Source: Alphaproteobacteria bacterium
GTDB taxonomy: Bacteria; Pseudomonadota; Alphaproteobacteria; JANQMY01
DNA: 64,000 nt
Direction of reading: 5' to 3'
NCBI GenBank assembly: GCA_028289425.1
Contig: JANQPL010000009.1
Span: forward strand, 324,961-388,960
Each line of letters begins with the position of its first letter. The first letter of the stretch is position 1. A model generated the notes under the pieces. The model ran no database searches. It was given only the letters and a program-made list of their open reading frames with translations, and had not been told where the DNA came from. Shown piece after piece: positions 17,714 to 61,070 of this stretch. The position numbers were made by a program, and so were the translations under genes.

Positions 17714-17716
17714 GCA

Positions 17717-19226: not shown

Positions 19227-19249
19227 GCAGTGTAGAAGCGTTCCCGGCA

Positions 19250-19786: not shown

Positions 19787-19808
19787 CGGACTGATGCGGT
19801 AACGGCCC

Positions 19809-21931: not shown

Positions 21932-22411
21932 TCATCTGGTGCGCTCTGCCCAAAACCCGTCGGCTTTTTCAATGTATCCCGGAATGTCTTTTTCCCAGCG
22001 CTGCTGCGCCGAGCGGTCGAAATTGAGATAGAGCTTGCCGTCCACAACCCGCCAGACTTCCGGATCGCCGAACACCAAACTGTTTCCGGATCCAAGCGCA
22101 TAGGCGCAATGGCCGCCATATTGCGGGCGGTTGGCATCGGGATCGGAGAGAAATCGGTCGAGATTTTCCTGGCTTGCGAACGTCCAGGTCACGCCCAGAT
22201 ATTCGGTGGAGAATTGCGGATCGCCCATCTCCGGTTCCCCTAAAAAGTAGGAAACAGCGTCGTAGCCGTTGAGCGCGTATTCCCACATGGCGCCTTTGCC
22301 GCCGAAGAAGCCTTTTTCGTAATTCCAAAGCGGTTCTTCCGCGAGGGCGGCGCCGCTTGTGCCCACGACCAGCAAAATTGTCACAGCCAGTGTTCTCACA
22401 AATGCACCCAT
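21932..22411 (-). CDS. secreted YHS-domain protein
   Basis: A signal peptide precedes a YHS/TRASH-like segment (GYDAVSYF ... KLYLNF). Confidence 0.45.
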   Translation of the reverse strand: MGAFVRTLAVTILLVVGTSGAALAEEPLWNYEKGFFGGKGAMWEYALNGYDAVSYFLGEPEMGDPQFSTEYLGVTWTFASQENLDRFLSDPDANRPQYGGHCAYALGSGNSLVFGDPEVWRVVDGKLYLNFDRSAQQRWEKDIPGYIEKADGFWAERTR

Positions 22412-22517
22412 GCTAAATCTCCCAAAAATTGAACCGACCCGAACTCGCACTCGCGCACAACCGAAATTGGCTCCTCAAACCGGCCGGGCGCCTATCACCG
22501 CATAACACGGAGACACC

Positions 22518-45694: not shown

Positions 45695-46918
45695 ATGGCC
45701 ATTGCGGAAACCGACGAATTGGGTTTTGAGGCGCCTGCCCCCGTAGGACACCCGGGACGGGCCGGCCTGCCGGCTAGCGCGTCAACCGGCCCAGAGATTG
45801 GCGAGCGCCTACCGGACTTCGCGCTGCCTGACGCCTTCGGCAACACGGTGCGTTTTCATGAGCACCGGGGGGCGTCGAAATCTGCCGTCGTCTTCTATCG
45901 TTCCGCGGTTTGGTGACCGCCCTGCATGACGCAGCTGGTCGAGCTGCAAGAGGGTTACAACAAGTTTCAGGAACAGGGCATCAAGCTCTACGCCATTTCT
46001 TATGACGATCAAGAGGTCCTGCGGGATTTCGCGCAGAGCTACGGCATTGAGTATCCCCTGCTGTCGGACATGGACTCGGCGGTCATCAAACAATTCGGCA
46101 TACTGAATACTCAAATCCAGCCGGGCGATGCGGTGCTGTACGGCATTCCCTATCCCGGCACCTACATCACCGATGAAGACGGTGTGGTGATCCAAAAGTT
46201 TTTCCACGACACTTATAAACGGCGCGAAGGACCGGAATTGCTGATCGATGCCGCCCTTGGCCGTGTCGTTCTGGATGACAGCGCCCCGGCAGCCTCCGAA
46301 ACAGACGACGAAGGCATCAAGGTCTCGGCCACCTTGCACGGCGGAGCGATCAAGCAGGGGGCACAGCGGGAAATCATCGTGCGCTTTGAACTGCCGGAGG
46401 GCCTGCACATTTATGGACAACCGGTGCCTGACGGCATGATCCCAACGACAGTAACCGTCAGCGGGCCCGAAGGCTTGGCCGTTGAAGAAACAATCTTTCC
46501 GCCTACAGAACAATTACGACTGGAGAGTTTGGATTTGGATTTGCCCGTTTGGTCGGGCCAAGTGGACATTCGCGTACCCATCTACGCCCTGTCCGCGCTG
46601 CAATCCGAGTGCCGGCCTCTAGATCAAGATGAGATCGATATCGAGGTGGCCGTTCGCTACCAGGCCTGCGATGACAATGTGTGCCTGCTGCCCAAATCGG
46701 AGAGCTTCACCATCACAGCACCTCTGGAGACCATTCACGTTCAGTCTATCGACTTGCATATGGGCCACGGCCAGAAAGAGGCCACTTTTGACGGCACGCC
46801 CCATTTGCGGCGCCTGCTCATCCGCAAGATCCGCCAGAGCCCACTCGGCTTTGTCCGTTATATATTTAAGGAAATGGGCCTGCGCCGCGCCGCCAGAAAG
46901 CGGGCTGTCTCGGACTAG
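45695..46918 (+). CDS. candidate selenoprotein: thioredoxin-fold redoxin (W-U-P-P-C) fused to a DsbD-alpha/DsbC-like domain, with in-frame TGA at 45914-45916
   Basis: ORFs 45566-45916 and 45926-46918 share one frame and are separated only by a TGA that sits exactly where the first Cys of a WCxxC motif is expected (VVFYRSAVW-U-PPCMTQ). A GCAGCUGGUCGAGCUGC hairpin starts 14 nt downstream. The C-terminal domain ends with a YQACDDNVC motif. Confidence 0.55.
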
Positions 46919-47303: not shown

Positions 47304-48320
47304 ATGACAGGTATGACCAATCGCCCAACCAACCGCAAGATTGTGCTGGTGGAGCACGTTAAAGGGCAAGTGAAGCCAGAGCATTTTCGCCTGGAGGAAG
47401 AAGAGGCCCGCGCGCCCGATGAAGGGGAGATCCTGGTGGGCGTCGACACCATCTCCATTGATGCCTTTATTCGAACCTCGTTGAACGATTGGGAAGGTTT
47501 GCACACCCAAACACCCATCGGCGGCGTGGTCGGCACACTCAATGTGGGGCGTGTTGTCGAAAGCAATGCGGCCGGGTTTGACGTGGGCGATGCCGTGACC
47601 GGCGGTCTGGGATCGCAAACCTACGCGACGGTACCTGCCAACACGGTTCAGAAGATTGACGACAGCCTGCCCCTGTCGACCTATTTGGGTGCGTTGGGAC
47701 TTACCACGGGTCTTACGGCGTATTTCGGCATGCGTCATGTGGGGCAAGCGAAAGCCGGAGAAACCGTGTTGGTCTCCGGCGCTGCCGGCGCGGTCGGCTC
47801 GGTTGCCGGCCAAATCGCAAAGCTCGATGGTGCCAAGGTGATCGGGATTGCCGGCGGATCGGCGAAGTGCAAGTTTCTAACCGAGACTCTCGGTTTCGAC
47901 GGCGCGATCGACTATAAGGCCGGCGATGTGGACCCTCAGCTTAAGAAACTCGCACCCGACGGTATTGATGTGTTCTTCGACAATGTGGGCGGCGACATAT
48001 TGGACGTGGCCCTCGACAATATTCGCGAGCGCGGCCGGGTCGCCATCTGCGGTGCAATTTCTCAGTATGATGATCACTTGAACGTGCAAGGTCCAAGCTT
48101 GTATTTGCGGCTCGCAGAACGCTATGCCCGTATGGAAGGCTTCACCGTGATGCACTTCATGGACAAATACCCGGAAGCCTATGCGCAGCTCACCGAGTGG
48201 CTGAAAGACGGCAAACTCAAAGTAGTGGAGCACGTGGAAGAAGGCATCGAGTCATTTCCGGCGGCGCTGCAAAAGCTCTTCACGGGCGGCCATATGGGCA
48301 AGATGCTGGTGAAGGTTTAG
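47304..48320 (+). CDS. NADP-dependent oxidoreductase (MDR superfamily, prostaglandin-reductase/YncB-like)
   Basis: GAAGAVGSVAGQIAKLDGAKVIGIAG Rossmann motif. Confidence 0.75.
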   Translation: MTGMTNRPTNRKIVLVEHVKGQVKPEHFRLEEEEARAPDEGEILVGVDTISIDAFIRTSLNDWEGLHTQTPIGGVVGTLNVGRVVESNAAGFDVGDAVTGGLGSQTYATVPANTVQKIDDSLPLSTYLGALGLTTGLTAYFGMRHVGQAKAGETVLVSGAAGAVGSVAGQIAKLDGAKVIGIAGGSAKCKFLTETLGFDGAIDYKAGDVDPQLKKLAPDGIDVFFDNVGGDILDVALDNIRERGRVAICGAISQYDDHLNVQGPSLYLRLAERYARMEGFTVMHFMDKYPEAYAQLTEWLKDGKLKVVEHVEEGIESFPAALQKLFTGGHMGKMLVKV

Positions 48321-48412
48321 ACGATTTTCCACTCCATGAATGCGTCATCCCAGGACGAGCGAATGCGAGTTCCTGTGACCAGAGCGATTCTTGCTCCACT
48401 TGCTGCCCTGGA

Positions 48413-48433
48413 TGCCAGGAACAAGTCCTGGCA
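48413..48433. terminator. 8-bp-stem hairpin TGCCAGGA-ACAAG-TCCTGGCA between convergent genes
   Basis: A perfect inverted repeat between the 3' ends of the oxidoreductase and aox genes. Confidence 0.4.
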
Positions 48434-48466
48434 TGACGCAGAGTATTTGACAACGCCGTCGACTAC

Positions 48467-49147
48467 TCATTCCGCTGGGATACCCAACGAAACGTTCCTG
48501 TTTTCGCGGTTCCCCACCAGCGCAGATGCAAAACGGTGGTTCTTGTCGCGATGCCCTTCTTCATCGGCGCGCACCTGGATCACCACATCCCGCAGAGTAG
48601 CCGTTGCCGGCATGTGCCAGTATTTCAGTGCAATGTCCGGCGCCGGTACATTTTCCAGACGACCCGCATCGATCTCTTCCAGATAGCGCGTGTAACTGAC
48701 AACCGCTTCTTCTTCCAAATAACCAACAAAACGATGCGCCGTTTTCGGGAAGAACAAATAGAAGAAGAAATAGAAATTATAGAAGATTGCCTGGGCGAAC
48801 ATGATCAGCATACGTTCGAACATGTTCGGTTTGGCGATTTGGACAAACGTCATCAGATGCATGCGCTCGTTTTCCGCTTCATCGAGCAGTTCGCGGATCC
48901 ATCCCTGATCGTCGCGGATGTGGCGGAGCGCCTTGAGGTGCTGCAGCAGCCCACCCACCATGCCGGGCACCGCGGCAACGGTTTCCAACACCACCGCCCG
49001 GTGGCCATACCGTTTCTGGAAGAACAGATCCGCAAATATCCGCAAAAATTTAACGAGGCCCAGCGCAAGCCGGTCGCTCACGGATTGAACCGCGAAATGG
49101 GTGCCTGTGGCGACACCAGACCTGGGGGAAGACACATGCTCTGTCAT
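48467..49147 (-). CDS. aox: alternative oxidase (cyanide-insensitive ubiquinol oxidase)
   Basis: Di-iron ligand motifs [20 protein letters not shown] and RADEEGHRD are present. Confidence 0.8.
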
Positions 49148-49352
49148 TATTGCCTCCGCATGAAGCCAAGACGGGCGAAACGAGCCCACCTGTTAATTCT
49201 TAGGTAGAGCGCACTTGGTCGAAAACAATGTGACCAAAGGGCCCAAAGCCGTTCATTGGATTATCCAATGAGGTTTGTGTTTCTTGCCGATTAGCGCCTG
49301 CAAAACCGGCACCACGCTCCGCCCGAAAGGGACTGTTTAGGACGAAACCTAT

Positions 49353-49375
49353 AAGATGTATTCAACATACATCTA
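49353..49375. promoter_or_regulatory. candidate NsrR operator (AAGATGTATTC-A-ACATACATCTA) in the aox/nsrR divergent region
   Basis: An 11-1-11 inverted repeat closely resembles the enterobacterial NsrR consensus AAGATGCATTT-N-AAATGCATCTT. Additional half-sites occur at 49409-49419 and 49894-49904. Confidence 0.45.
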
Positions 49376-49444
49376 TATAGCGGCGCCCTTGATTTAAATC
49401 AATATGTGAAATACATCTTTTATGGAATTCTTGGAGGCATGACG

Positions 49445-49882
49445 ATGCGATTTACCCGCTATACGGATTATGCCCTTCGCGTCTTGATGTATTTGGGCCT
49501 CAAAGGCGAAGAGCTTTCCACGATCAAAGAGATTGCCGAGAGATACGGCATCTCCGAAAACCATTTGATGAAGGTGGTGCACAATTTGGGGCGCGAAGGC
49601 TTTATTGAAACCATTCGCGGGCGGCAAGGCGGCATGCGCTTGGCTCGTCCGCCGAAAGATATCAATGTCGGTGACGTGGTCCGCAAATGTGAAGACGATT
49701 TGCGCCTCGTGGAATGCTTCGATCCGGTCACCAACACCTGCCCGATTTCTGATGTCTGCGGCCTTGCGGGCATGATTGATGAAGCGCTGGCGGCGTTCAT
49801 GAAGGTGCTGGATAAGAAAACGTTGGCCGACATTCTAAAGACCAGCCCAGGAATGGCACCGATTTTGAAGCTTGCCGGATGA
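49445..49882 (+). CDS. nsrR: Rrf2 family transcriptional regulator, NsrR-like
   Basis: Rrf2 HTH (TRYTDYALRVLMYL) plus three C-terminal Cys (CxxxxxxCxxxxxC) for an Fe-S cluster. Confidence 0.75.
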   Translation: MRFTRYTDYALRVLMYLGLKGEELSTIKEIAERYGISENHLMKVVHNLGREGFIETIRGRQGGMRLARPPKDINVGDVVRKCEDDLRLVECFDPVTNTCPISDVCGLAGMIDEALAAFMKVLDKKTLADILKTSPGMAPILKLAG

Positions 49883-49974
49883 AATTCATTTAAAAGATGT
49901 ATTTTTGATATTGATTATCAAAGCGCTCTTTGCTATATAAACATGTATAGAAAATACACTTTTGAGTGAGCGAG

Positions 49975-50400
49975 ATGACCTCCATCGACGTGATTCCGGC
50001 CAATCCCAGACGCAAACCGCTGCACCCCGACATTTCGGAAGACATGATCGACCGGCTCGTCAAAGCGTTCTACGCAAAGGTGCGGGCGCACGACCGGCTG
50101 GGGCCGATCTTCGATACTGTCATCGGGGACAAATGGGAAGAGCATCTGCCGAAGATGAACGATTTCTGGTCGTCAGTGACCCGCATGACCGGGCGCTACA
50201 AGGGCAAGCCCATGGTCAAACATCTCAAGTTGAAGCAAGTGCAGCCGGAGGATTTCGACATTTGGCTTCAACTGTTCCGCGAAACGGCGGACGAGCTATT
50301 GCCCCCGGACATTGCGCCCATCTTTATCAGCCGGTCTGAACGGATCGCCGAAAGCCTCAAACTCGGCATGTTTTTCGCGCCAGTGGAGAAACCCAAATGA
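49975..50400 (+). CDS. group III truncated hemoglobin
   Basis: ~141 aa bacterial-globin-like protein (LVKAFYAKVRAHDRLGPIF ... KMNDFWSSV ... RYKGKPMVKH). Confidence 0.6.
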   Translation: MTSIDVIPANPRRKPLHPDISEDMIDRLVKAFYAKVRAHDRLGPIFDTVIGDKWEEHLPKMNDFWSSVTRMTGRYKGKPMVKHLKLKQVQPEDFDIWLQLFRETADELLPPDIAPIFISRSERIAESLKLGMFFAPVEKPK

Positions 50401-50693
50401 CACGGCAACTCCCCGATCAGGCAATCAAGCACAAGGAAACCAAGCGCTTCACTGCCGACACAGTCCCCGCGGCGCTGACGAAAAACCACGACACCAAACC
50501 CGGCGTTTGGGGATTGATCTGTGTGGACGCAGGCGCGCTGGATCTGTCGATCGGCGATCCGGTTTCGGAAACACTGCATCTTGCGGCCGGCGATACCGGC
50601 GTCGTCAACCCGCAAGAGGTACACAAAGTCGCGCTCCAGCCGGATGCCGAGTTTCACATCGAGTTTTACTCGTTGCCGGACAACAGCCACTAA
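50397..50693 (+). CDS. DUF1971 (YeaR-like) protein
   Basis: 98 aa resembling E. coli YeaR (an NsrR-regulon member). It overlaps the globin stop by 4 nt. Confidence 0.5.
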   Translation: MTRQLPDQAIKHKETKRFTADTVPAALTKNHDTKPGVWGLICVDAGALDLSIGDPVSETLHLAAGDTGVVNPQEVHKVALQPDAEFHIEFYSLPDNSH

Positions 50694-50784
50694 AAATATT
50701 CCTTGCCGGCTCATTCGCGCTATCGTGTCGCAAAACTTGTTATTGGCCGCGACGGAGCGCAACACATTGACATCGTCAAAACCT

Positions 50785-51765
50785 TTGAAAGAAAAAATCA
50801 CCCTGGTGGCCGGTGCCACGCGCGGCGCCGGGCGCGGCATCGCCCACATGCTGGGGGAGGCAGGCGCCACGGTGATCTGCACGGGACGCAGCACGCGGGA
50901 GCAAACCTCGCCCATCGGCCGTCCGGAAACAATTGAAGAAACGGCGGAACTCGTGACGGAGGCGGGCGGTCGCGGCGTCCCCATTCGCACCGACCACCGC
51001 AGCATCGCCGAAGTAAAAGCGTTGTTCGAACGGGTGAAAGCGGATTTCGGGCGCCTGGACGTGCTGGTCAATGACATTGGCGGTGAAGGGTTGTCGGACT
51101 GGAAGCCAGCTTGGGAGACGGATCTGGAAAAAGGACTTGAGCTCCTCGACACGGCCGTCCGTACACATATCATCACGGCCCGGCTCGGCCTGCCGTTGAT
51201 GCTGGAACAAGATTCGGGACTCATTGTCGAAATCACCGATGGAGACCACGGGGGCTATCGCGGTGCCCTTTTCTATGACCTAGCCAAGAACCAGTCGATC
51301 CGGTTTGCCTACGCGTTGGCAGAGGAGTTGAAACCCAGGGGCATCGCATCGGTGGCAGTCGCGCCGGGGTTCTTAAGATCCGAAGCCATGTTGGACATGC
51401 TCGGCGTCACCGAAGCGAATTGGCGGGACGCCGCGGCAAAAGAACGGGGCTTCAGCGAATCCGAAACGCCCTGCTATGTGGGCCGGGCGGTGGCGGCGCT
51501 TGCCGCGGATCCCAACGTTATGGACAAATCAGGCGGCGTCTATGCAAGCTGGGAGCTTGCGAAGGAATATGGCTTCACCGATATCGACGGCCGTAAGCCA
51601 GATTGGTGGACGTATGTACGCAAATCGGTCAATGAGATTCTTGACAAAGGCGGACCGCAAGACGATGGCGAGCAGTACTGGGTCAATGCGTGGCATTCCC
51701 AGCTCAAGGCCGACCCGCGCTTCGCCGACTTATGCAAGCGGATTGAGGAAGTGACGCAAATTTAA
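50785..51765 (+). CDS. SDR family oxidoreductase
   Basis: TLVAGATRGAGRGIA Rossmann motif. The start is uncertain (in-frame TTG at 50767 or 50785). Confidence 0.6.
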   Translation: MKEKITLVAGATRGAGRGIAHMLGEAGATVICTGRSTREQTSPIGRPETIEETAELVTEAGGRGVPIRTDHRSIAEVKALFERVKADFGRLDVLVNDIGGEGLSDWKPAWETDLEKGLELLDTAVRTHIITARLGLPLMLEQDSGLIVEITDGDHGGYRGALFYDLAKNQSIRFAYALAEELKPRGIASVAVAPGFLRSEAMLDMLGVTEANWRDAAAKERGFSESETPCYVGRAVAALAADPNVMDKSGGVYASWELAKEYGFTDIDGRKPDWWTYVRKSVNEILDKGGPQDDGEQYWVNAWHSQLKADPRFADLCKRIEEVTQI

Positions 51766-51919: not shown

Positions 51920-52438
51920 CTACTCCGTCAGGGCCTTTATGACCGCGTCGACCGTATCGCCGGCCTTGGCACGCATTTCATCGTCGGTAGCATCCTGAAT
52001 GGGATGTTCGACGAAGACACATCGGGCATCTTTCATACCCAATGCCGTTGCTTGCGTATCCGCCGCGTCAACAAATTCCGTGGACGCGATGGAAACTGAG
52101 GGAACCCCCTGAATTTCGAACCAAACCGTGTCATGCAAACTGCATGTCGTGCAGGATCCTCAATCGGCCAGGGCTTCGATAACGAAGTCGCACTCCCTTT
52201 TGATGTCGTGACGGAGATCGTCCGGGCACGGCTTTGTAAACGTGGGCTTGGCGAACCGTTTCACTTCAATGCCCGGCAGCTTTTCCTTGAGCATGCCTTC
52301 GAGCGCATCGAGATAGACGTCGCCGCGGGGCTTGCGGATGTCCATCAAGCCCACCACGCCGGAGATCGCTCCGCTGCGTGGCGTGACCTGCCGGGTCACC
52401 GGCACCGCTTCATTTGTCGGGTCAAGGATGGTGGTCAT
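51920..52438 (-). CDS. UGSC-family (seleno)protein, with in-frame TGA at 52160-52162
   Basis: ORFs 52160-52456 and 51920-52138 are in frame and are joined by the readthrough EALAD-U-G-S-C-TTCSL. I recall UGSC as a named (seleno)protein family. A hairpin (CUGCA-CGACA-UGCAG) lies 5 nt downstream. Confidence 0.6.
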
Positions 52439-52637
52439 CCTTTTTTCCTTTCTCAATTTCGAATGACTCTATATTGCCAGGGAGCACGCTGGGCGCCAAG
52501 ATCATATTTGGTCGCGCCTGCCTGCGCGAAGCCGGAGCTTCGCCCTGCGGGCCAAAGCCCTTCGGGCGACGGGTCGTTCGGCGAAGGCAGGCGATCGGGC
52601 GAAAAACCACGTACACTTTTCCTGATCGCGCTCCGAC

Positions 52638-54224
52638 TCAATCGCCGATTTTGCGCGAGACCGAAATGGAGCCCATCTCGCCGGTCGCCCAGCCGTGAAA
52701 CGCCCCTGAAAACTTGCCCGCATCGGACCCGGCCACGACGATGTGGATATAGACTTCGCTCAAGAACTTGGGCACCAACGAGTCAAGTTGTTCCGCCGTC
52801 ATATTGGCCGCCGCCTCCGGCTTGAGGCCGGCGCCGGAAATGTCATTGCCGACCATGTCGCGCAGCGGCCGCTTAGTCACTTCTTGGATACGTTCCCGCA
52901 AGCGCTTTTTGGAGTAATCGCCGTCCACCATCAGTGTGTCCACATGTTCCGGACACACCACCAGCAGCGTATCGATGGGCCAGCCGTGATATTTGGGATG
53001 AAAAACGCTTTCTAACCCCAGGCCCAATGTGCCCGCCATCTGATCGGGCTTGCGCGATTCCTGATCGACAATCAACGTCGGTCCGCTGGTCATGGCAAAG
53101 ATCGTGACCACGTTTTCGTCTTTTTTGAAGCCGCGCTCCACATGGAGCGGCTCCCATGGGTTGCGTTCTTCCCATTCGGCAAAGCACATGGTGAATTTCA
53201 TGGGATTGCCCAGGGTGGAGCGGTCCGTGCCGCCCGGTTTGGCGCCGCCTACATTGCGCACTACCAGGCGCAAGGCCCGGCCGATCGTTGCATTCGCGCG
53301 GCTGCCGTTCCCCAGCGCACCCAGCTTCATGTTCATATCGAGCTTGTGGCGGATGGGCCCGTTGATGATCATCACCGGCGCAGCCCCCATAGTGGTGGCG
53401 TTCACCCCATGAATATTGAATTCGTCCGTACACACAGCCTCCACGGCGGCGATTATGACGGGCATGTATTCGGGCTTACAGCCTGCCATGACGGCGTTGA
53501 TGGCGACTTTCTCAACGGTGACCTCACCCATATTGGGCGGCATGACGGCGATGACTTCCTGAGCGCCGCGTTTAGTGCCGTCGAGCATGCGCAACACCCG
53601 TTCCGGTGTGGGCGGAACCAGCGGCAGCCCGTCGGAGAAGCCTTGATCGAACATGAACTCGAACTCATCGTCCGCTTCGGCGATCTCGATCTTCCGGGCA
53701 CGGATGGGGCTATTATCGGCCTCGGCGCGCAAGCGGTCCGCCACCATAGGATCGACGGATTTTGAACCGCATCCCGGCCGCCATTCGGGCAGGTCGCCCC
53801 AAGCGATGCCGGCATCGTCGGCGCTGAGCACGCCCGCAATTTCTTTCTCAAGCGCTTCCCATTCCTCGCGCGCGAAACCGATCACCTTAGTGCCCGCGGT
53901 GCCATCGCCGCCCGCCCAGATGACGGTGGGCACGGTGTCAATCTCATTGTCGAAGGAAACTTTGCACCCCGATTCATCGAGGATGGGCACAGCCAGCTCA
54001 TGACGCTCTGAGAGAACAGCATTGCCTTCTTTGGTTTGGCCCAGCACCAGAATGTCGGCTTTGTCGCCCCAAGCGCGATGAAACCCGTCGAGCACCGGCA
54101 TCACCAGATTGCAGGTCGGACAGTCTTCCTTGACGAAACAGACAAGGGCCGGACGGCCGGTGGGGAAACGATGCGGCTTTCCCGCTGCATCGTTCAAGGC
54201 AAATGCATTTAGCGTTTCGGACAT
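52638..54224 (-). CDS. uncharacterized 528-aa protein: N-terminal thioredoxin-fold domain (CPTC) fused to a large domain of unknown function
   Basis: The VCFVKEDCPTCNLV CxxC motif sits in the first ~150 aa. I do not recognise the C-terminal ~370 aa. It lies inside the selenoprotein operon. Confidence 0.5.
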   Translation of the reverse strand: MSETLNAFALNDAAGKPHRFPTGRPALVCFVKEDCPTCNLVMPVLDGFHRAWGDKADILVLGQTKEGNAVLSERHELAVPILDESGCKVSFDNEIDTVPTVIWAGGDGTAGTKVIGFAREEWEALEKEIAGVLSADDAGIAWGDLPEWRPGCGSKSVDPMVADRLRAEADNSPIRARKIEIAEADDEFEFMFDQGFSDGLPLVPPTPERVLRMLDGTKRGAQEVIAVMPPNMGEVTVEKVAINAVMAGCKPEYMPVIIAAVEAVCTDEFNIHGVNATTMGAAPVMIINGPIRHKLDMNMKLGALGNGSRANATIGRALRLVVRNVGGAKPGGTDRSTLGNPMKFTMCFAEWEERNPWEPLHVERGFKKDENVVTIFAMTSGPTLIVDQESRKPDQMAGTLGLGLESVFHPKYHGWPIDTLLVVCPEHVDTLMVDGDYSKKRLRERIQEVTKRPLRDMVGNDISGAGLKPEAAANMTAEQLDSLVPKFLSEVYIHIVVAGSDAGKFSGAFHGWATGEMGSISVSRKIGD

Positions 54225-54228
54225 GTTT

Positions 54229-55428
54229 CTATTCGGTCGTCACCTTTTGGTTTCCCAGTGTGTGCACGGCGGAGGCGAACTCATTCAGTCCCAGGTCTTC
54301 CCGCATATCCGCCGTCACATCCGTAAAGTTGGGGTCGAGCGAAATGCCGATGCCGTCGGCAATGCGCACCATGCGTTCGAAATTGCCCACCACACCGGCT
54401 GCATCCACAAACTGCTCAGGGCTAACCGCCGCTAACAGATCAGTACGGGCTGCATCCAACGTCGCCTGATCGCCTTCAACAACGGCGTCGGCAAAGGCCG
54501 TTAGCTCCTTGCCCGCTGGGATCCGTTCGTCCACGCTTTCAGCGCCTTCAACAACACCCGTCAGTTCTACTTCTTCGCCGATCGATTGTGCGCTCACACG
54601 GAGCAGCATCGCATGAGCGGTCGTTCAATAGAAACAGTCGTTAAGTGCGGACACCCTCCCTGCAAGCAGTTCGATTTGAGGGCGCGACAGGTTTCGGCCT
54701 TCGTTGACCGCGCCGAATTTGCCGGCGGGAATGTATTGCACATCGCTTAAGGCGAACCAGTCACGCACGGCATCGGGCACCAAACTCAAGGCACGGGCCA
54801 CATTGGGAATGGTCTTGGCAAAATCCGCGCCCCATAGATCCTCGTCCGGCGCATGGGGTTGTTCCCGCGCCAGCATGGGGACATAGGCCTCGCCATCGAC
54901 CAAGGGGGCCGGCCGCGCTCCCGTCGGCTCTCCAGCGACGGGGCTCGGCAAAGCGTGCACCGGAACACCCAGGCCGCGGCAGGTTTGGTCCATGCTGCGG
55001 ATGGCAACCACGATTCCAAGCGCCTCCACATAATGACCATCCGAGAAACCTGCGTTCGCCAGATCTTCAATCGCTTTTTGGGTAATGCGGGTGACGTCCG
55101 TGACCATCATATGCACCATGGCGATGATGGGCTCCGTCAACACACCTTCCGTCATCGGATCAATGGTATGTTTGCCTTCGATGGTATAGGGGCTGAGTGC
55201 CTTTTTCCGCTCTACGCAAAACGGACATGTGATGGCTGCCCGCGCTTCTGCCGCAATACAAATGCGCTCAGCGCCGGTCCACCACGCGCCTGGCCGCGCG
55301 AGGCGGGACAGAACAACCGCATGGGCGTTCGCCATATCTTCCCGCACCGGCACTTTGCATGTCGCAAAGTCATTCGTGACATTGGCCAGTATGCCGGGGT
55401 CCCGTTGATCGTCGGTGATTTGTGGCAT
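54229..55428 (-). CDS. candidate tandem CMD/AhpD-like selenoprotein, with in-frame TGA at 54625-54627
   Basis: ORFs 54625-55428 and 54229-54609 are in frame. The readthrough is RVSALNDCFY-U-TTAH, i.e. the CMD core signature RVSxxNxCxxCxxxH with Sec at the second Cys. The first domain has TCPFC. Confidence 0.55.
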
Positions 55429-55452
55429 TCAAACTCTCCCCGTCGATTGTTG

Positions 55453-56241
55453 TTATTTGAGTGCTTTTTTGACAGCCTTGAGAACACGCTGCCCGTCGGA
55501 CCTTACTCTATAGTCACTCGATTGATCGATCCAGCGGATCGTGCCCGACGCATCGGTCAGGATGGTCGTGGGAATGGCCAGTGCTCGGCGCATCCCCCGG
55601 CTGTCGCGCGGATCGCCTGCCATGGCGTTGGGGTGCTCCACCCCGTAGGCCTTGATAACCTCCAGATCCGGATCGGCCAGTTGCAGCATGGAGAGCCCAT
55701 GTTTGCTGCGCATCGCGTCCGCCTGCTCGACCGTATTGGGGCTGATGGCGACCATTTTCACGCCCAGCGCGTCGAAATCATCTTGCAAGTCTTCCCATCG
55801 CTGCAACTCAGCGACACAGTAAGGTCACCAATGGCCCCGATAGAATTTGAGAAGCAGCGGGTCATTTTGCCCAGGCTCATATGCAAAAGTGCCCCCATCC
55901 CAATCGGCGGCAGCAAAGGCCGGAGCCGGCGCGCCCACTTTCACACCGACGCCCTTCGGCACCCCACCTTGAGAGAAGAGATAAAGGACAAAGCCGCCAA
56001 GGAGCACAGTGATGGCGGCAAGCGTGCCGCCGACCCAGCCCGGACCGAGAATGAGTGTCCAAACGGCCAACAGAAAACCTGTCAAAACCGACAGCTCGCT
56101 CAGAATGGGCCGCCGCGTGAACCCCTTCTTCAGAACAAGGATACGCCGAAAATAAAGCGCCATCCGCCCGATGACCAGCAGCATGGCCAGCGCAAGGGTG
56201 ACGTAGGGATTCCAGAGAAGTGAGAGAATTTGATCCGCCAT
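55453..56241 (-). CDS. candidate membrane-anchored redoxin selenoprotein (W-U-P-Y-C), with in-frame TGA at 55825-55827
   Basis: Three N-terminal transmembrane helices are followed by LKFYRGHW-U-PYCVAELQ, paralogous to the 45914 site. A GUCGCUG-AGUUG-CAGCGAU hairpin lies 9 nt after the UGA. It is directly downstream of selC. Confidence 0.55.
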
Positions 56242-56407
56242 CGCACGATCCTAGCGGGGGGCGCTCGTGACTGGCAAGTCAAGCAATCGTGGGGAGCTCA
56301 GTCTGCCTTAGCGCGGGGTCAGTCCACCTACGCCAAGGCTACGGTGGACACTCCTTCGTCTAACGAGCTTCGGCTGGTTCACCACCCGAAGCTCGAAGAG
56401 CGAAGGG

Positions 56408-56501
56408 TGGCGGAGGCGGATGGGAATCGAACCCACCACACGCATGGCTGCGTGTCACTGGTTTTGAAGACCAGGGAAGCCACCAGACTCCATTCGCCTC
56501 C
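56408..56501 (-). tRNA. selC: tRNA-Sec (selC), anticodon UCA
   Basis: The reverse complement reads GGAGGCGAAUGG ... CCUGGU-CUUCAAA-ACCAG ... GGUUCGAUUCC ... CCGCCUCCGCCA. It is ~94 nt with a long extra arm, an anticodon loop with UCA at positions 34-36, and an encoded CCA. Confidence 0.75.
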
Positions 56502-56584
56502 TCTCGAAGATGTGGGTTGGACTATGTCACAGCCATTGGCTAGAAAGAAAGAGTGTTGAAGCAATCGAAGGAAAAAGCCACGCG

Positions 56585-57649
56585 ATGGCGGACAAAGATA
56601 AGGTCCGGCTGACGCAGTACGCTGTGTCTGCTGGTTGAGCCGGTAAGCTCGGACCTGGGCAGTTGTCGCAAGTTTTGCGACCGTTGAAAGATATATTTCC
56701 GCAGGCGGATTTTCCCGATGTGCTGAGGGGGCTCAGCTCACCGGACGATGCCGCTGTGCTGAAACTGACCGACGAGTTGTCGATGGTAGCAACGGCGGAC
56801 TTCTTCGCGCCGGTGGTGGATGACCCCTACCAGTTCGGCGCCATCGCCGCCGCCAACGCCCTGTCTGATGTTTACGCAATGGGCGCCGAGCCAAAGCTCG
56901 CGCTTAATCTCGCAGGCTTTCCGAAAACACTGGACCTGGACATTCTGAACGAGATCTTCCGCGGCGGCGCCGACAAGGTGCGCGAGGCGGGCGCCGCCAT
57001 TGCCGGCGGTCACACCACCTTCGACGAAGAACCCAAATACGGCCTGGCGGTAATGGGTGTGCTGAACAAAGCGACCGCTTTCGCCAATGAAGGGGCCAAG
57101 CCCGGCGATCAGTTGATCCTCACCAAACCCATCGGTACGGGGATCATCACCACCGCCCTTAAACAAAGTAAGATCGACGAAAGCGACACCGAAGAAGCCG
57201 TCGCCAGCATGGCGCGCTTGAGCGCAGGCGCGGCGAAGATTTTGCGTGCCGCTCCCGCCGGCGCTGTCCATGCGGTCACCGACATTACCGGCTTCTCATT
57301 GGCGGGCCATGGGCATGAGATGGCGGATCAGTCGGGCGTTGCATTGGAGATTGCGTTTTCGAAGATCCCGCTGCTTGCCGGCACGGACGGCTTGGCCGCG
57401 CAAGGCGTCGCCCCCGGCGGCGCCGGACGGAACAAGGACTATTTCGGCCAATGGTTCGAGCGGGGGCCAAGCATCACCGACGCCCAAGAAACCATCGTCT
57501 TCGACCCGCAAACTTCCGGCGGCTTGCTGGTGGCCGTCGCGCCGCAAGCGCTTGAAAGTCTGATGGCCGATTTTTCCGAAGCAAGCGAGCCGGTTTGGCA
57601 TATCGGCAAGGTCACTGACGGTCCCAATGGCACCATTCACCTTGTTTAA
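56585..57649 (+). CDS. selD: selenide, water dikinase (selenophosphate synthetase), Sec-containing form with UGA at 56636-56638
   Basis: ATG 56585 is followed by KDKVRLTQYAVSAG-U-AGK, aligning with E. coli RLTQYSHGAGCGCK (Cys17). The downstream sequence is collinear with SelD (DFFAPVVDDPYQFG ... GGHT). Confidence 0.8.
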
Positions 57650-57707
57650 GGTGAAAGCTTTTCAGGCCGCTACCTGACGCGCTATCCTTCTTTAAACAGA
57701 AACTTGT

Positions 57708-57779
57708 CCGCCCCGCTCCCCCTTCCCAACCACCCCAAGGGTAACCTTATCGGGTGGTTGGGAAGGGGGAGCGGGGCGG
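57708..57779. repeat. long perfect palindromic element (28-bp stem), copy 2, in the selD-selA spacer
   Basis: CCGCCCCGCTCCCCCTTCCCAACCACCC-CAAGGGTAACCTTATC-GGGTGGTTGGGAAGGGGGAGCGGGGCGG. Confidence 0.6.
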
Positions 57780-57795
57780 TGAGGTCATACAAACA

Positions 57796-59184
57796 ATGGA
57801 CTCGAGCCTTTTTCGCAAAATCCCTCAGGTGAATGACCTGGCATTGAAACCGCACATCGCGCTGCTGGAAGGCGCGTGGAGCCGCGACGAGATGGTCGAT
57901 GCGCTACGCGCAGCACTCGATGAGGTGCGCGAGGGTCTGCGCAAGGGCACTGCCCTGCCCGATTTCGATAGCCCCGCCTTTGCCGCGCATATCGAAGCAC
58001 TCATGGCCGCCACAAGACAGCCCAGCCTGCGCCGCATCATCAATGCCACGGGCATCGTCATCCATACCAATTTGGGGCGCTCGCCCTTAGCACCGGCCGC
58101 CCTGGAAGCGATCCAAGAAACCGCTGCCGGTTACACAAACATCGAAATGACACTTGCGACGGGCCAGCGCGGCTCGCGCTACGATCATGTACGCGATTTG
58201 ATCTGTGAGCTGACAGGTGCGGAAGATGCAATTATGGTCAATAATTGCGCCGCCGCCGTTACCCTGGCGCTTGCTACCTTCGCCAAAGACAAAGAGGTCG
58301 TGGTCTCCCGCGGCGAACTGATCGAAATCGGCGGATCGTTCCGCATCCCGGATATCGTCGCCCAAAACGGCGCCACATTGCGCGAGGTGGGCACCACCAA
58401 CAAGACCCATTTGTCGGATTATCAAAACGCCATTACCGACGGCACAGCCGTTCTGCTGAAAACGCACACAAGTAACTACCGTATCGTCGGTTTCACCGCG
58501 TGCCCCGAACGAACGGCGCTCGCGAAACTTGCCAATGAAAACCAGCTTGTTTTGCTGGAAGATTTGGGCAGCGGGACGTTGATCGACCTCACCGCCTATG
58601 GCATCGGCGACGAGCCCACCGTGCAGCATTGTATCGCCTCCGGCGTGCACTTGGTGACGTTTTCCGGCGACAAGCTGCTGGGCGGACCCCAATGTGGAAT
58701 CATGGCGGGTAAGAAGGAGCTTGTGGCCAAACTGCGCAAGAACCCGCTGCTGCGGGCCATGCGCATCGACAAGCTATCGCTGGCGGCGTTAGAAGCCACC
58801 TTGCGGCTTTACAAGACACCTTTCGAGCCCGAAGAAGATATCCCGACGCTTCGCATGCTGACGGCAACGCCCGAAGAGCTGGAAGAGACGGCGCAGGATC
58901 TTGCGGCGGCGCTCAACGCCCTCCCGGAAGTAACCGCAACGACAGCCCAAACTATGAGCGAAGCGGGTGGCGGCTCCCTGCCTGCCCACCAGTTAGCGTC
59001 GTATTGCGTGCGCCTCACTGTCGGCACATTGACGCCGGATGCGTTGATGGCACGTCTGCGCCAGGGGGGAACACCGATCATCGCACGCATCTCCAAAGGC
59101 GACGTGATCTTGGATGTGCGCACGCTTTTGCCCGATGATGTATCGGATCTGCCGGGCCTGATCGGCGCCCTAGAGAGCACATGA
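57796..59184 (+). CDS. selA: L-seryl-tRNA(Sec) selenium transferase
   Basis: Collinear with E. coli SelA as I recall it ([44 protein letters not shown]). It carries the PLP-lysine region. Confidence 0.85.
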
Positions 59185-61070
59185 CCGAACAACTTTCTCT
59201 CGGCGTGATCGGCCATGTGGACCATGGCAAGACCACGTTGGTCAAAGCGCTCACCGGCATGGAAACCGACCGGCTGAAAGAAGAAAAGCTGCGCGGGCTT
59301 TCTATTGTGCTTGGGTTTGCCTACCTCGAAACCGAACGCGGCCTTATCGACTTTATCGACACACCCGGCCATGCGGATTTCGTCCGTACCATGATTTCCG
59401 GGGTGAGCGGCATCGACGCGGCACTCATCGTCATTTCCGCCAACGAGAAAATCATGCCGCAAACGGTGGAACACATTCGCATTGTGTCTCTGCTGGGTAT
59501 CGACCAGGCGGTGGTGGCGCTCACCAAAACTGATTTAGCGACGGATGACGAGATCCGCGATGCCACCACAGAGATAGAGGCCTATCTTGCCGACACGGCA
59601 TTTTCCAACGTGACCATCGTACCGGTGAGTGCGCCGGCGAACCACGGGGTCGACGACTTGGTGGCCGCGCTCAACACGCTGTTCGACACCAAACCCAAAC
59701 GCGCCGATGTGGGTCATTTCTACTTGCCCTTCGACCGGGTGTTTAGCGTGAAAGGCTTCGGCACGGTCGGCACCGGCACCCTCAGCGCGGGGCCCGTCGC
59801 CGTCGGCGATGTGGCGGAAATCGCGCCGGACGGCCGCAAAGCGCGGGTGCGCAGCCTGGAAGTCCACGGGGGTTCTGTTGAGCGCGCCCTGCCCGGCCAA
59901 AGGGTCGCCGCCAATGTGCGCTTGGAAGGCACCGGCGAGATAGCGAGGGGCAACGCACTCACCTCGCCCGACTGGCTGCCCGCATCGGACTATTGGGATG
60001 GCACACTTCAACTGTTAAGCGACGCGCCGAAGGAACTCAAAAGCGGGGCAAAGCTTCGCATCCTGCATGGCACGACGGAAGACATTGCCACGATCCGCTT
60101 GCTCGACAGAGAGCGCCTCAAGCCTGGTGAAACGGGTCCCGTCCAGTTTCGATTGGCCCAACCCGCCGTGGCCTGGCATCAGGAACGGTTCATCGTGCGT
60201 TCGATCACGCCCGTTCAAACCATTGGCGGCGGTCAATTCACGGACACCCAGGCCAAACGGCGCGGGCGCAAAGACAGCGCGATCACGGCGCCGTCCGAAA
60301 AAGCGGATGCCCGCACGACGGCCCTGCTGTCCATCGTCAATAATGCCGGAACGGACGGTATTTCCCTTGCGGAGCTTGGGCAGCGGGTGGACTTGCCGGA
60401 AGACGATCTGCGCCAGCTCTGCCTTAAACACGAATGCTCTATCGAACAAAACGGGCTGGTCTATGCCAGTGGCGTTATCACCGCCACGATGGAAAAGATC
60501 GCGGCGCTGCTGGGCGAATTTCATGAGGCCAATCCGACCCGCATGGGACAGCAACAAAGCGAGTTGGCGTCACGCCTGGGCGTTCCGCAACGCTTGTTCC
60601 GCTTCGCTATGGCGCTGATGGCCGATACCAAACAATTGAACATAAGCCAAGGCATTGTGCGCCTGACCTCATTCGACCCATTCGCGCAGCTTAAACCTGA
60701 CGAGCGCAAAATATTGGAGGCACTGGAACAGCGTTTGATCGAACAAGGCATCACCGCGCCGACGCTCAAAGAGCTCACAGAAGAAAACCCCAAATTCAAA
60801 GACATCTCGCGGTTTTTAGTGGATACAAACCATGCCATCGCGGTTTTCGATGAAAAACGAAAGAACCTGTTCTTCTTCCATCACAGTGCCATTGATGGGG
60901 CCATTGAGGATTTGCGAAAGGCCTTTCCACCGCCGGCGGCCTTCACAGCCAGTCAAGCCCGCGAGGCGCTGGGCACCACCCGCAAATATGTCATGCCGTT
61001 GCTGGGCCATCTGGACAAACAAAAAATTACGCGGCGCAAGGACGACATGCGCACGCTAGCAGTCCAATAA
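59181..61070 (+). CDS. selB: selenocysteine-specific elongation factor
   Basis: GTPase motifs GHVDHGKTT and DTPGH are followed by the C-terminal winged-helix extension. A 4-nt overlap with selA suggests translational coupling. Confidence 0.85.

What the first reader, a model, noticed from the sequence alone, without database searches (positions are those of the whole stretch)
51920..61070. Selenium island: selC-selD(Sec)-selA-selB beside an operon of UGA-interrupted redox genes
Within ~9 kb sit a tRNA with anticodon UCA, a selD whose Cys17-equivalent codon is TGA, then selA and selB. Divergently from these, a minus-strand operon starts right after selC and runs through a membrane redoxin, a tandem CMD protein, a Trx-fold fusion protein and a UGSC protein. 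Three of its four genes carry a single in-frame TGA at a catalytic-Cys position. This concentrates the whole Sec-decoding machinery next to its likely clients in one locus. It implies the organism translates UGA as selenocysteine, so standard gene callers would split every one of these genes.
Basis: partly seen in the sequence, partly recalled or inferred. Interest (0 to 1): 0.85.

Follow-up and report, generated by a model that had tools for sequence, protein, structure and literature searches.

The report
Selenocysteine gene cluster with selenoprotein operon
This stretch of an uncultured alphaproteobacterium holds the full machinery for reading UGA as selenocysteine, next to an operon of selenoproteins from known families. 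One partner protein in that operon has a large, widespread domain with no described family and no solved structural relative.

Summary

- **Sec machinery.** selC is a tRNA-Sec (Rfam 83 bits). selD carries TGA at the E. coli Cys17 position. selA and selB are present.
- **Divergent operon.** It encodes four proteins:
  - a membrane ResA/Prx-like protein (W-U-PYC);
  - the AhpD-related CFY-U-T protein;
  - a 528-aa Trx-fusion protein;
  - a UGSC protein.
- **Sec evidence.** Each TGA aligns with a redox Cys of homologues. Each TGA is kept in all orthologues, and each is followed by a conserved hairpin.
- **Novelty.** All selenoprotein families here are already catalogued, so the locus is a new member of a known kind.

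The less ordinary part is the 528-aa protein.
- In 83/83 related loci its gene is immediately followed by UGSC, which carries TGA in 80/80 complete copies.
- In 64/83 loci tRNA-Sec sits directly upstream.
- Its 354-aa C-terminal domain also occurs fused to UGSC in either order.

The function of this pair is unknown. I infer a thioredoxin-driven two-part selenoenzyme.

The parts
56408..56501 (-). selC, tRNA-Sec (anticodon UCA, discriminator G, CCA encoded)
   Evidence: ARAGORN. Rfam RF01852 at 83.2 bits, E 1e-15. Fold: 13-bp acceptor plus T helix, 6-bp D stem with 4-nt loop, 7-bp variable arm. Acceptor-stem covariation among 46 relatives.
56248..56277 (-). Sigma-70-like promoter match (TTGCCA-18-TAGGAT) between selC and prxM
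   Evidence: Consensus match only, and not enriched over shuffles. The position fits an operon promoter.
55453..56241 (-). prxM: N-terminal hydrophobic segments (about 3, judged by eye) plus an AhpC/TSA-redoxin domain. Sec at codon 139 (TGA 55825-55827), motif W-U-P-Y-C.
   Evidence: PF00578 at 88.8 bits, spanning the TGA. U aligns with the first Cys of ResA WCPHC. TGA is kept in L084, L085, L087 and L093.
55798..55814 (-). SECIS-like hairpin of prxM (nt 14-30 from the U of UGA; loop AGUUG)
   Evidence: Pair 18/26 is U-A in the window and C-G in three other lineages. The loop is invariant.
54229..55428 (-). AhpD-related CFYUT (seleno)protein. Sec at codon 268 (TGA 54625-54627), motif C-F-Y-U-T-T-A-H. 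A second CxxC (CPFC) lies in the N-terminal half.
   Evidence: NF041238 at 422 bits against a cut-off of 175. U aligns with the second Cys of CVYC in 6k40. Homologues are almost all truncated at 245-267 aa.
54591..54619 (-). Hairpin after the CFYUT TGA (nt 9-37; conserved core 13-17/29-33; apical region of about 11 nt)
   Evidence: The core is paired in 34 of 35 cells across 7 distinct sequences, down to 47% protein identity. Pair 16/30 switches between GU and UG. This hairpin is less canonical than the others.
53820..54224 (-). N-terminal TlpA/ResA/DsbE-like thioredoxin domain of the 528-aa protein (active site C35-P-T-C38)
52638..53702 (-). C-terminal domain 'Unk1' of the 528-aa protein (residues 175-528). 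Invariant Cys249; nearly invariant Cys347.
51920..52438 (-). UGSC family selenoprotein. Sec at codon 93 (TGA 52160-52162), motif U-G-S-C-T-T-C.
   Evidence: NF041046 at 169.5 bits. PF24696 at 162.8 bits as one stretch across the TGA. TGA in 80 of 80 complete orthologues. Cys at this position in P0395 and P0399.
52132..52146 (-). SECIS-like hairpin of UGSC (nt 17-31; loop G23 U24 N25)
   Evidence: 100% paired in 43 distinct sequences. Pair 18/30 is GC in 31, GU in 9 and AU in 3. The synonymous sites C21 and U24 never vary, while the neighbouring Cys codon varies between C and T.
56585..57649 (+). selD, selenophosphate synthetase, itself a selenoprotein (TGA 56636-56638)
   Evidence: TIGR00476 at 368 bits. 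Alignment to 3u0o. TGA is kept in L007, L043, L085, L087 and L093.
56665..56681 (+). Hairpin after the selD TGA (nt 30-46; 7 bp; loop GUU)
   Evidence: All 7 pairs are kept in 6 distinct sequences. Pair 31/45 varies between UA and UG. It lies further from the UGA than the others.
57796..59184 (+). selA, L-seryl-tRNA(Sec) selenium transferase (an alternative GTG start lies at 57754)
   Evidence: TIGR00474 at 581 bits and PF03841 at 490 bits.
59181..61070 (+). selB, Sec-specific elongation factor with C-terminal winged-helix domains
   Evidence: TIGR00475 at 300 bits. Also PF09106, PF09107 and PF25461.
45695..46918 (+). Fifth selenoprotein gene, outside the reported coordinates: AhpC/TSA-redoxin plus DsbD_N fusion. 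TGA at 45914-45916, motif W-U-P-P-C. Hairpin at 45931-45947 with loop GGUCG.
   Evidence: (PF00578 at 109 bits across the TGA; PF11412 at 38 bits). TGA and hairpin are kept in L084.

Best explanation
This is a chromosomal selenocysteine-decoding locus of an uncultured alphaproteobacterium, together with genes it serves.

**How decoding works (established knowledge applied to the families identified here).**
1. SelD makes selenophosphate. SelD is itself Sec-dependent, so the system feeds back on itself.
2. SelA converts Ser-tRNA(Sec), the selC product, to Sec-tRNA(Sec).
3. SelB brings that tRNA to UGA codons that are followed closely by a hairpin.

**Genes shown here.** Five genes in the window have such a UGA at a redox-active Cys position: selD, prxM (UxxC), CFYUT (CxxU), UGSC (UxxCxxC) and a Prx-like/DsbD_N protein (UxxC).

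**Conserved core.** The minus-strand unit is selC, then prxM, CFYUT, the 528-aa protein and UGSC. Its evolutionarily conserved core is selC, then the 528-aa protein, then UGSC. This lineage inserted prxM and CFYUT between selC and the 528-aa gene.

**Inferred mechanism.**
- prxM and CFYUT form a membrane-associated thiol/selenol oxidoreductase pair. It is analogous in logic to AhpC/AhpD.
- The 528-aa protein and UGSC form a two-part selenoenzyme:
  - The unknown 354-aa domain (Unk1) is the catalytic or substrate-binding part.
  - The UxxCxxC selenol of UGSC is the redox centre.
  - The fused TlpA-like thioredoxin domain re-reduces that centre.
- The substrate is unknown.
For: **Machinery.**

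**U aligns with Cys.**

**TGA conserved in every orthologue examined.**
- UGSC: 80 of 80.
- prxM, CFYUT, selD and prxDsbD in 1 to 7 further lineages each.
- The reading frame downstream of each TGA is conserved, and single family models span each TGA.

**Hairpins.**
- They occur more often than chance. Four of 5 sites have one, against a 7.5% background.
- Pairing is conserved and covaries.
- Synonymous sites in the UGSC loop are invariant.

**Synteny.**
- The arrangement selB-selA-selD, then divergently selC-prxM-CFYUT-528aa-UGSC, is seen in full in L085 and L087. L093 shows the same protein-gene order (selC not checked there). L084's contig starts at prxM.
- 528aa-UGSC adjacency holds in 83 of 83 loci.
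- tRNA-Sec lies 40-160 nt upstream in 64 of 83 loci, on the same strand in 63.

**Partnership of Unk1 and UGSC.**
- Fusions occur in both orders, and there is an FeThRed_B-Unk1 fusion.
- Stand-alone Unk1 genes lie next to UGA-containing UGSC genes in 4 of 5 contexts.

**Genuine stops.** TGA also serves as an ordinary stop in the window. For example, HIU hydrolase ends at its canonical YRGS-TGA.
Against: - There is no experimental evidence of Sec insertion.
- The CFYUT hairpin has a large, non-canonical apical region and a mismatch at 12/34 in most sequences.
- The selD hairpin loop lies at nt 37-39, at the far end of the spacing I recall for bacterial SECIS models.
- The 8th acceptor pair of the tRNA is an A.C mismatch.
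- Folding energies of 70-nt windows after the TGAs do not differ from shuffles (z between -0.5 and +0.65).
- The functional pairing prxM/CFYUT is inference only. Distant CFYUT homologues occur without prxM.
- Nothing tested here shows what Unk1 does.
Confidence: 0.9

Rival explanations
1. The 528-aa protein and UGSC are not ordinary clients of the Sec machinery. They are part of selenium metabolism itself, for example releasing or reducing selenium for SelD.
For: - In most alphaproteobacterial loci the pair sits inside the sel cluster, in the order selA-selB-selC-528aa-UGSC.
- In Henriciella, Hyphomonadaceae and Sulfitobacter an Ndh-SelD fusion follows directly.
- The pair carries thiol and selenol chemistry suited to handling selenium.
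Against: - Gammaproteobacterial loci carry the pair with no sel gene within 10 kb.
- Stand-alone Unk1-UGSC pairs lie beside CoA-transferase, MaoC dehydratase, thiolase-like and IclR genes. That looks like carbon catabolism.
- Linkage could simply reflect co-inheritance of the Sec trait with its main client.
Confidence: 0.15
2. The in-frame TGAs are real stops. The genes are split or decaying pseudogenes, and the hairpins are coincidental.
For: - Gene callers record two ORFs for each gene.
- Folding z-scores of 70-nt windows are unremarkable.
Against: - TGA sits at the same codon in 80 of 80 UGSC genes and in all orthologues of the other genes. The downstream frame remains intact.
- The position always coincides with a catalytic Cys.
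- A complete selABCD set is adjacent.
Confidence: 0.02
3. UGA is reassigned genome-wide (Trp as in code 4, or Gly as in code 25). The products would then carry Trp or Gly rather than Sec.
For: Some database homologues of UGSC show W or G at the U position (P0392, P0394, P0391).
Against: - About 24 of 60 likely genes in the window end with TGA. These include HIU hydrolase at its canonical C-terminus.
- The only UCA tRNA is a tRNA-Sec with selA and selB beside it.
- The W and G readings are best explained by callers choosing another code.
Confidence: 0.01
4. The cluster is a horizontally mobile genomic island that carries the Sec trait.
For: - The selC-528aa-UGSC cassette appears in Caulobacterales, Rhodobacterales (Sulfitobacter) and other lineages.
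- It lies next to a tRNA gene.
Against: - GC is 59.3% against 56.9% for the window, about one SD of 2-kb windows.
- No integrase or transposase lies in the flanks.
- The flanking AOX/Rrf2/ADH genes are syntenic in relatives L084 and L093.
Confidence: 0.1

Closest known systems
E. coli selC / selD / selAB system with the fdhF SECIS
   Same: - Same four components and the same family models.
- A hairpin lies directly after the UGA.
- In UGSC the loop G and U sit at nt 23-24 from the U of UGA. As I recall, these are the positions of the essential G23/U24 of fdhF.
   Different: - Here the genes are clustered, and SelD is itself a selenoprotein.
- The clients are thiol-oxidoreductase-type proteins, not formate dehydrogenase.
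- The tRNA has a conserved A.C at the 8th acceptor pair.
UGSC-containing selenoprotein family (NF041046 / PF24696; Zhang & Gladyshev 2008, PMC2398784)
   Same: - Full-length match above cut-off, with the motif U-G-S-C.
- The paper already reports a UGSC fusion to an unnamed conserved domain 'Unknown_1'. This is probably the Unk1 domain seen here.
   Different: - In this locus the partner domain is a separate gene, fused instead to a TlpA-like thioredoxin domain.
- The strict adjacency (83 of 83) and the placement behind selC were not found in the papers read.
AhpD-related CFYUT (seleno)protein, NF041238 ('hypothetical protein 1' of the Sargasso Sea selenoproteome; PMC13188914)
   Same: 422 bits, motif C-F-Y-U-T, CxxU.
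   Different: Nothing material. Here it is placed after a membrane Prx-like selenoprotein. A Prx-like/AhpD-like pair was seen once in GOS reads.
AhpC/AhpD peroxidase-reductase pair of Mycobacterium tuberculosis
   Same: An AhpC/TSA-fold protein is encoded next to an AhpD-fold CxxC-type protein.
   Different: - prxM has the ResA/TlpA-type W-C-x-x-C arrangement, not the peroxiredoxin T-x-x-C site.
- Both partners use Sec.
- The functional coupling is not tested.
Glycine/sarcosine/betaine reductase selenoprotein B (GrdB) with the thioredoxin system
   Same: - UxxCxxC spacing of the Sec motif (PMC13188914).
- A thioredoxin-type reductant is associated.
- A Sec subunit is paired with a larger non-Sec subunit.
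   Different: - There is no detectable sequence relation. UGSC gives no hit to any other Pfam family at E <= 10.
- The hosts are aerobic Proteobacteria.
- Unk1 has no relative among solved structures.

Membership tests
Bacterial tRNA-Sec (Rfam RF01852) | Anticodon UCA and a covariance-model score above the gathering threshold | tested here: met
   Anticodon tca. 83.2 bits against 47.
Bacterial tRNA-Sec (Rfam RF01852) | 13-bp acceptor plus T helix (8/5 in bacteria), 6-bp D stem with 4-nt loop, long variable arm | tested here: met
   13 bp in total. It reads as 8/5 with an A8.C mismatch, as 9/4 in the Rfam alignment, or as 7/6 in the MFE fold. D stem 6 bp with loop UGGU. Variable arm 7 bp. The mismatch is conserved in 46 relatives.
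SelD selenophosphate synthetase (TIGR00476) | Equivalog score above cut-off, and Sec or Cys at the E. coli Cys17 position with Lys20 | tested here: met
   368.5 bits against 125. U18 and K21 align with C17 and K20 of 3u0o.
SelA (TIGR00474) and SelB (TIGR00475) | Equivalog scores above cut-off. For SelB, C-terminal winged-helix SECIS-binding domains. | tested here: met
   581 against 268 bits and 300 against 242 bits. PF09106 and PF09107 present.
Bacterial SECIS element | Hairpin shortly downstream of the UGA, within the coding frame, with G (usually GU) in the apical loop, conserved among orthologues | tested here: met
   UGSC, prxM, selD and prxDsbD each have 6-8 bp stems with GU in the loop, and pairing is conserved. 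CFYUT has only a conserved 5-bp core with an 11-nt apical region. No curated Rfam model exists for these elements (one search found only the tRNA).
UGSC family (seleno)protein (NF041046, PF24696) | Score above cut-off, UGSC motif, and Cys in the non-Sec homologues at the same column | tested here: met
   169.5 against 125 bits, and 162.8 against 25 bits. P0395 and P0399 read ALAD-C-GSC.
AhpD-related CFYUT (seleno)protein (NF041238) | Equivalog score above cut-off and the motif C-F-Y-U-T | tested here: met
   422 against 175 bits. The sequence reads NDCFY-U-TTAH.
Peroxiredoxin proper (AhpC/BCP/PrxQ) | Peroxidatic Cys in a T/S-x-x-C context, and an equivalog-level score | tested here: not met
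   The PF00578 domain is present. The active site is W-U-P-Y-C, aligned to the ResA WCPHC. All NCBIfam peroxidase models score far below cut-off (38.8 against 140). It works like a ResA/TlpA-type oxidoreductase.
GrdB/PrdB selenoprotein B | Homology to the GRDB family, plus a UxxCxxC motif | tested here: not met
   The motif spacing is present. UGSC hits no Pfam family other than PF24696 at E <= 10 and nothing in the PDB.
Mobile genomic island | Integrase or transposase, flanking repeats, deviant composition, patchy presence against conserved flanks | tested here: not met
   No such genes in the flanks. GC lies within 1.2 SD. The flanks are syntenic in L084 and L093. Flanking repeats were not searched.
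Any described family for the C-terminal domain of the 528-aa protein | A match to Pfam, NCBIfam, PDB sequence or PDB fold | tested here: not met
   The AlphaFold database could not be searched.

The most novel reading that the evidence does not exclude
The unnamed 354-aa domain (Unk1) and UGSC form a previously uncharacterised two-component selenoenzyme.
- Unk1 has a fold not represented among solved structures.
- The enzyme is driven by a fused or nearby thioredoxin-type reductant.
- In aerobic Alphaproteobacteria it is the principal reason the Sec machinery is kept. It is wired directly behind selC and inside the sel cluster.
- It may act on selenium itself.
Probability: 0.3. Interest if true: 0.75.

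Novelty: new member of a known kind. Interest (0 to 1): 0.5.

Why it matters
**Annotation.** Five genes in this window, and their many orthologues in public databases, are mis-called. Some are split into two ORFs. Some UGSC homologues appear to be translated with the wrong code (W or G in place of U).

**Biology.** UGSC is one of the most abundant selenoprotein families in aquatic metagenomes, and it has no known function.
- It always travels with one specific unnamed domain, as a neighbour or as a fusion in either order.
- That domain is often coupled to a thioredoxin or ferredoxin:thioredoxin-reductase module.
- In many genomes the pair sits directly behind tRNA-Sec.

Together these facts define a partner pair that can be expressed and assayed. 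They turn 'what does UGSC do?' into a testable question.

Tried and rejected
- **UGSC structure.** The UGSC fold was therefore not examined.
- **AlphaFold-database fold search.** It was unavailable.
- **PDB sequence searches.** Profiles of UGSC and Unk1 found nothing meaningful.
- **Naive TGA read-through scan.** It gave 111 candidates. After building a gene map, only one new real case emerged (45914). TGA 17719 is the genuine stop of HIU hydrolase before xdhA. TGAs 40880 and 21934 are ordinary stops.
- **70-nt folding z-scores.** They were uninformative and were replaced by a hairpin-pattern background and by orthologue covariation.
- **P0001.** This exact copy of the window's 528-aa protein could not be located on a contig. 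The organism is known only by its nearest relatives, which are alphaproteobacterial MAGs (90% identity to JANQMY010000454).
- **Other selenium genes.** The gene products scanned against Pfam and NCBIfam gave no selU/ybbB, yedE/yedF or other selenium-utilisation family. These products cover most of the window.
- **Metagenome scan.** It was not used.


Full report
**Observation.**
- ARAGORN finds a single tRNA in the window, tRNA-SeC(tca), at 56408..56501 on the minus strand. It is also the only Rfam match: RF01852 at 83.2 bits against a gathering score of 47.
- selD starts 83 nt away on the plus strand (56585..57649) and has an in-frame TGA at 56636-56638. Next come selA (57796..59184) and selB (59181..61070).
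- Four minus-strand genes follow selC:
  - a 262-codon membrane redoxin ('prxM', TGA at codon 139);
  - a 399-codon AhpD-related gene (TGA at codon 268);
  - a 528-codon gene without TGA;
  - a 172-codon UGSC gene (TGA at codon 93).

**Family assignment.**
- NCBIfam equivalog models identify SelD (368 bits), SelA (581), SelB (300), the 'alkylhydroperoxidase-related (seleno)protein' AhpD_rel_CFYUT (422 bits) and the 'UGSC family (seleno)protein' (169.5 bits). All are above their curated cut-offs.
- Pfam adds AhpC/TSA and Redoxin for prxM, the SelB winged-helix domains, and PF24696 for UGSC. In each case one stretch spans the TGA.
- The 528-aa protein matches nothing in Pfam. In NCBIfam it gives only a sub-threshold MauD hit (19 bits) on its thioredoxin-like N-terminus.

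Both were run.
- *U against Cys:*
  - prxM GHW-U-PYC aligns with GTW-C-PHC of B. subtilis ResA.
  - CFYUT LNDCFY-U-TTAH aligns with LNRCVY-C-AVSH of the AhpD-like structure 6k40.
  - SelD SAG-U-AGK aligns with GAG-C-GCK of E. coli SelD, that is Cys17 and Lys20.
  - For UGSC, the few full-length database homologues include two with ALAD-C-GSC.
- *tRNA structure:*
  - The acceptor plus T helix totals 13 bp.
  - The D stem is 6 bp with a 4-nt loop, and the variable arm is 7 bp.
  - The discriminator is G and CCA is encoded.
  - The 8th acceptor pair is an A.C mismatch. An alternative 7/6 register would pair G65 with C83. The mismatch is conserved in all 46 distinct relatives, and the rest of the acceptor stem covaries.

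**Evidence that the TGAs are decoded.**
- *Conservation.* The TGA is present in 80 of 80 complete UGSC orthologues. It is present in every orthologue of prxM, CFYUT, selD and the fifth gene that I could read. The downstream frame is intact in all of them.
- *Hairpins.* Each TGA is followed by a hairpin.
  - Perfect stems of at least 6 bp with GU in the loop follow 4 of the 5 sites. The background is 7.5% of all TGA triplets in the window.
  - UGSC: the 6-bp stem (nt 17-22 with 26-31) is paired in 100% of 43 distinct sequences. One pair occurs as GC, GU or AU. The loop is G23-U24-N.
  - The synonymous positions C21 and U24 never vary, whereas the third base of the preceding Cys codon does. This points to constraint on the RNA.
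  - prxM: pair 18/26 is U-A here and C-G in three other lineages.
  - selD: the 7-bp stem is kept in six sequences.
  - CFYUT: this hairpin is weaker. It has a 5-bp conserved core, a mostly mismatched 12/34 position and an 11-nt apical region.
- *Genuine stops.* TGA also acts as an ordinary stop in this window. One example is the canonical YRGS end of HIU hydrolase. Genome-wide reassignment is therefore excluded.
- *Split genes in public data.* Gene callers split these genes exactly as predicted. Fragments of 137+112, 265+120 and 92+72 aa are recorded. Nearly all database homologues of CFYUT and UGSC end at the TGA.

**A fifth selenoprotein gene.** A read-through scan followed by a gene map found one more case, at 45695..46918 (+).
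- The TGA is at 45914 in the context FYRSAVW-U-PPC.
- Pfam gives AhpC/TSA (109 bits, spanning the TGA) plus DsbD_N.
- A 6-bp hairpin with loop GGUCG follows.
- TGA and hairpin are both kept in L084.

**Conservation of the locus.**
- The arrangement is selB-selA-selD(U) on one strand and selC-prxM(U)-CFYUT(U)-528aa-UGSC(U) on the other.
  - L085 and L087 show it in full, with tRNA-Sec just upstream of prxM.
  - L093 shows the same protein-gene order; its tRNA was not checked.
  - L084's contig begins at prxM.
  - 528-aa identity to the window is 74-85% in L084, L085 and L087. L093 shares 79% CFYUT identity.
- L084 and L093 also keep the neighbouring alternative oxidase, Rrf2 regulator and dehydrogenase genes.
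- GC content is unremarkable (59.3% against 56.9%) and no mobility genes flank the cluster. 'Island' here means a cluster, not a mobile element.

**The conserved core.** The 528-aa protein belongs to a very large, highly conserved family.
- More than 8000 database clusters match it, and the top 120 are 65-88% identical.
- At least 578 matching stretches occur in a one-genome-per-species collection. They come from Caulobacterales, Hyphomonadaceae, Sulfitobacter and Pseudomonadales-like MAGs.
- In all 83 loci examined the gene is immediately followed by UGSC.
- In 64 of them tRNA-Sec lies 40-160 nt upstream, on the same strand in 63. selA and selB are usually just before it.
- None of L001-L083 has prxM or CFYUT within 10 kb. 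They accompany the cassette only in the window's own subclade (L084-L087, L093). In that lineage the two genes were therefore inserted between selC and the 528-aa gene.

**The unknown domain.**
- Residues 175-528 ('Unk1') occur widely as stand-alone proteins of about 350 aa. There are 5590 clusters of relatives at 50% identity.
- Seven of 41 sampled relatives carry part of a UGSC domain in the same ORF:
  - In four sequences inspected (P0202, P0228, P0234, P0239) the called ORF begins just after the UGSC Sec codon and continues into Unk1.
  - In one, Unk1 is followed by the N-terminal half of UGSC, ending at '...ALAD', exactly at the Sec codon.
- An eighth carries a ferredoxin:thioredoxin-reductase catalytic domain.
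- Stand-alone Unk1 genes lie next to UGA-containing UGSC genes in four of five contexts.
- This is probably the 'UGSC/Unknown_1 fusion' mentioned in the GOS selenoproteome paper (PMC2398784).
- Unk1 has no Pfam match even at E <= 10 and no PDB sequence match.
- One Cys is invariant (Cys249, in NAVMAGC) and a second is nearly so (Cys347).

**Mechanism.**
- *Shown:* a complete Sec-decoding set; five UGA genes with Sec at redox-Cys positions; an obligate genetic partnership between Unk1 and UGSC, frequently joined to a thioredoxin-type module.
- *Inferred:*
  - prxM and CFYUT act as a thiol/selenol oxidoreductase pair with the logic of AhpC/AhpD. However, prxM has a ResA-type W-U-x-x-C site, not a peroxiredoxin site.
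  - Unk1 is the catalytic or substrate-binding part of a selenoenzyme. Its UxxCxxC selenol centre lies on UGSC and is recycled by the fused thioredoxin domain.
  - The UxxCxxC spacing is that of GrdB (PMC13188914). No homology to GrdB or PrdB was detected, so this is a resemblance of logic only.
- *Rival reading:* the pair serves selenium supply to SelD. Its position inside the sel cluster in Alphaproteobacteria favours this. Two findings argue against it. Gammaproteobacterial loci carry the pair with no sel genes nearby. Stand-alone pairs have catabolic neighbours such as CoA-transferase, MaoC, thiolase-like and IclR genes.

**Comparison with the literature and verdict.**
- All the selenoprotein families here are catalogued: SelD, Prx-like UxxC, AhpD-related NF041238, UGSC NF041046. 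Selenoprotein operons and Prx-like/AhpD-like neighbours have been described (PMC2398784, PMC13188914). The finding as stated is therefore a correct and well-read instance of a known kind.
- I did not find two points in the papers I read:
  - the strict selC-(Trx-Unk1)-UGSC cassette;
  - the fact that the partner domain has no family and no solved structural relative.
- These two points give the locus moderate interest beyond annotation.

Noticed in passing
It is an AhpC/TSA-redoxin plus DsbD_N fusion with TGA at 45914 (W-U-PPC) and a 6-bp hairpin with loop GGUCG. [quoted passage not shown]
   Followed up: yes
window 21932-22450 (-): A YHS domain-containing (seleno)protein, NF041384 at 128 bits. 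It is apparently in its Cys form (YGGH-C-AY; column alignment to the model not checked), next to a rhodanese-domain gene. A Cys homologue of a selenoprotein family sits in the same window as five Sec genes.
   Followed up: partly
window 56408-56501 (-) and tRNA-Sec of L001-L087: The 8th acceptor pair is an A.C mismatch in the window and in all 46 distinct relatives. An alternative 7/6 register (G65-C83) gives the same 13-bp total. I did not check whether this is a known feature of alphaproteobacterial tRNA-Sec.
   Followed up: partly
window 52439-52637: The spacer between the 528-aa gene and UGSC is about 200 nt here, against roughly 10-130 nt (mostly 15-60) in the 83 related loci. It contains a 13-nt inverted repeat (52515-52527 and 52581-52593) that looks like a small inserted palindromic element.
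   Followed up: partly
database proteins P0391, P0392, P0394, P0396: Full-length UGSC homologues show G, W or R where Sec belongs. W and G are what genetic codes 4 and 25 give for TGA. Some pipelines apparently switched code to bridge the Sec codon.
   Followed up: no
window 47304-51765, also L084 and L093: Directly beside the cluster lie an alternative oxidase, an Rrf2-family regulator, a 144-aa ORF with no Pfam or NCBIfam match (globin-like by eye), a possible TehB-like ORF (by eye; a TehB-like gene is recorded at this position in L084/L093) and a dehydrogenase. The group is syntenic in relatives. It may be a nitrosative or oxidative stress module next to the redox selenoproteins.
   Followed up: partly
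L001, L013, L022, L025, L038, L049, L050, L053, L060, L064, L068 (about 1.5-2 kb downstream of UGSC): In Henriciella, Hyphomonadaceae and Sulfitobacter a 736-aa Pyr_redox_2 + SelD fusion directly follows UGSC. Cys at the active site was read in L064 only. The order there is selA-selB-selC-528aa-UGSC-ndh/selD on one strand.
   Followed up: partly
L085 about 2417-3064: A further Prx-like gene with an in-frame TGA (IYRGSW-U-PYCKLE) lies near selB in a related MAG.
   Followed up: no
P0144, P0172, P0186, P0197, P0251 (about 710 aa); L092: Some relatives contain two tandem Unk1 domains. In L092 the gene follows a family-5 solute-binding protein, and no UGSC is seen within the short contig.
   Followed up: no
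window 2851-20825: A purine catabolism cluster: AMP nucleosidase, adenosine deaminase, amidohydrolase, PuuD-type urate oxidase, xdhC, xdhB, xdhA, HIU hydrolase, a polysaccharide-deacetylase-type gene and allantoicase. The TGA at 17719 between HIU hydrolase and xdhA is an in-frame but genuine stop.
   Followed up: yes
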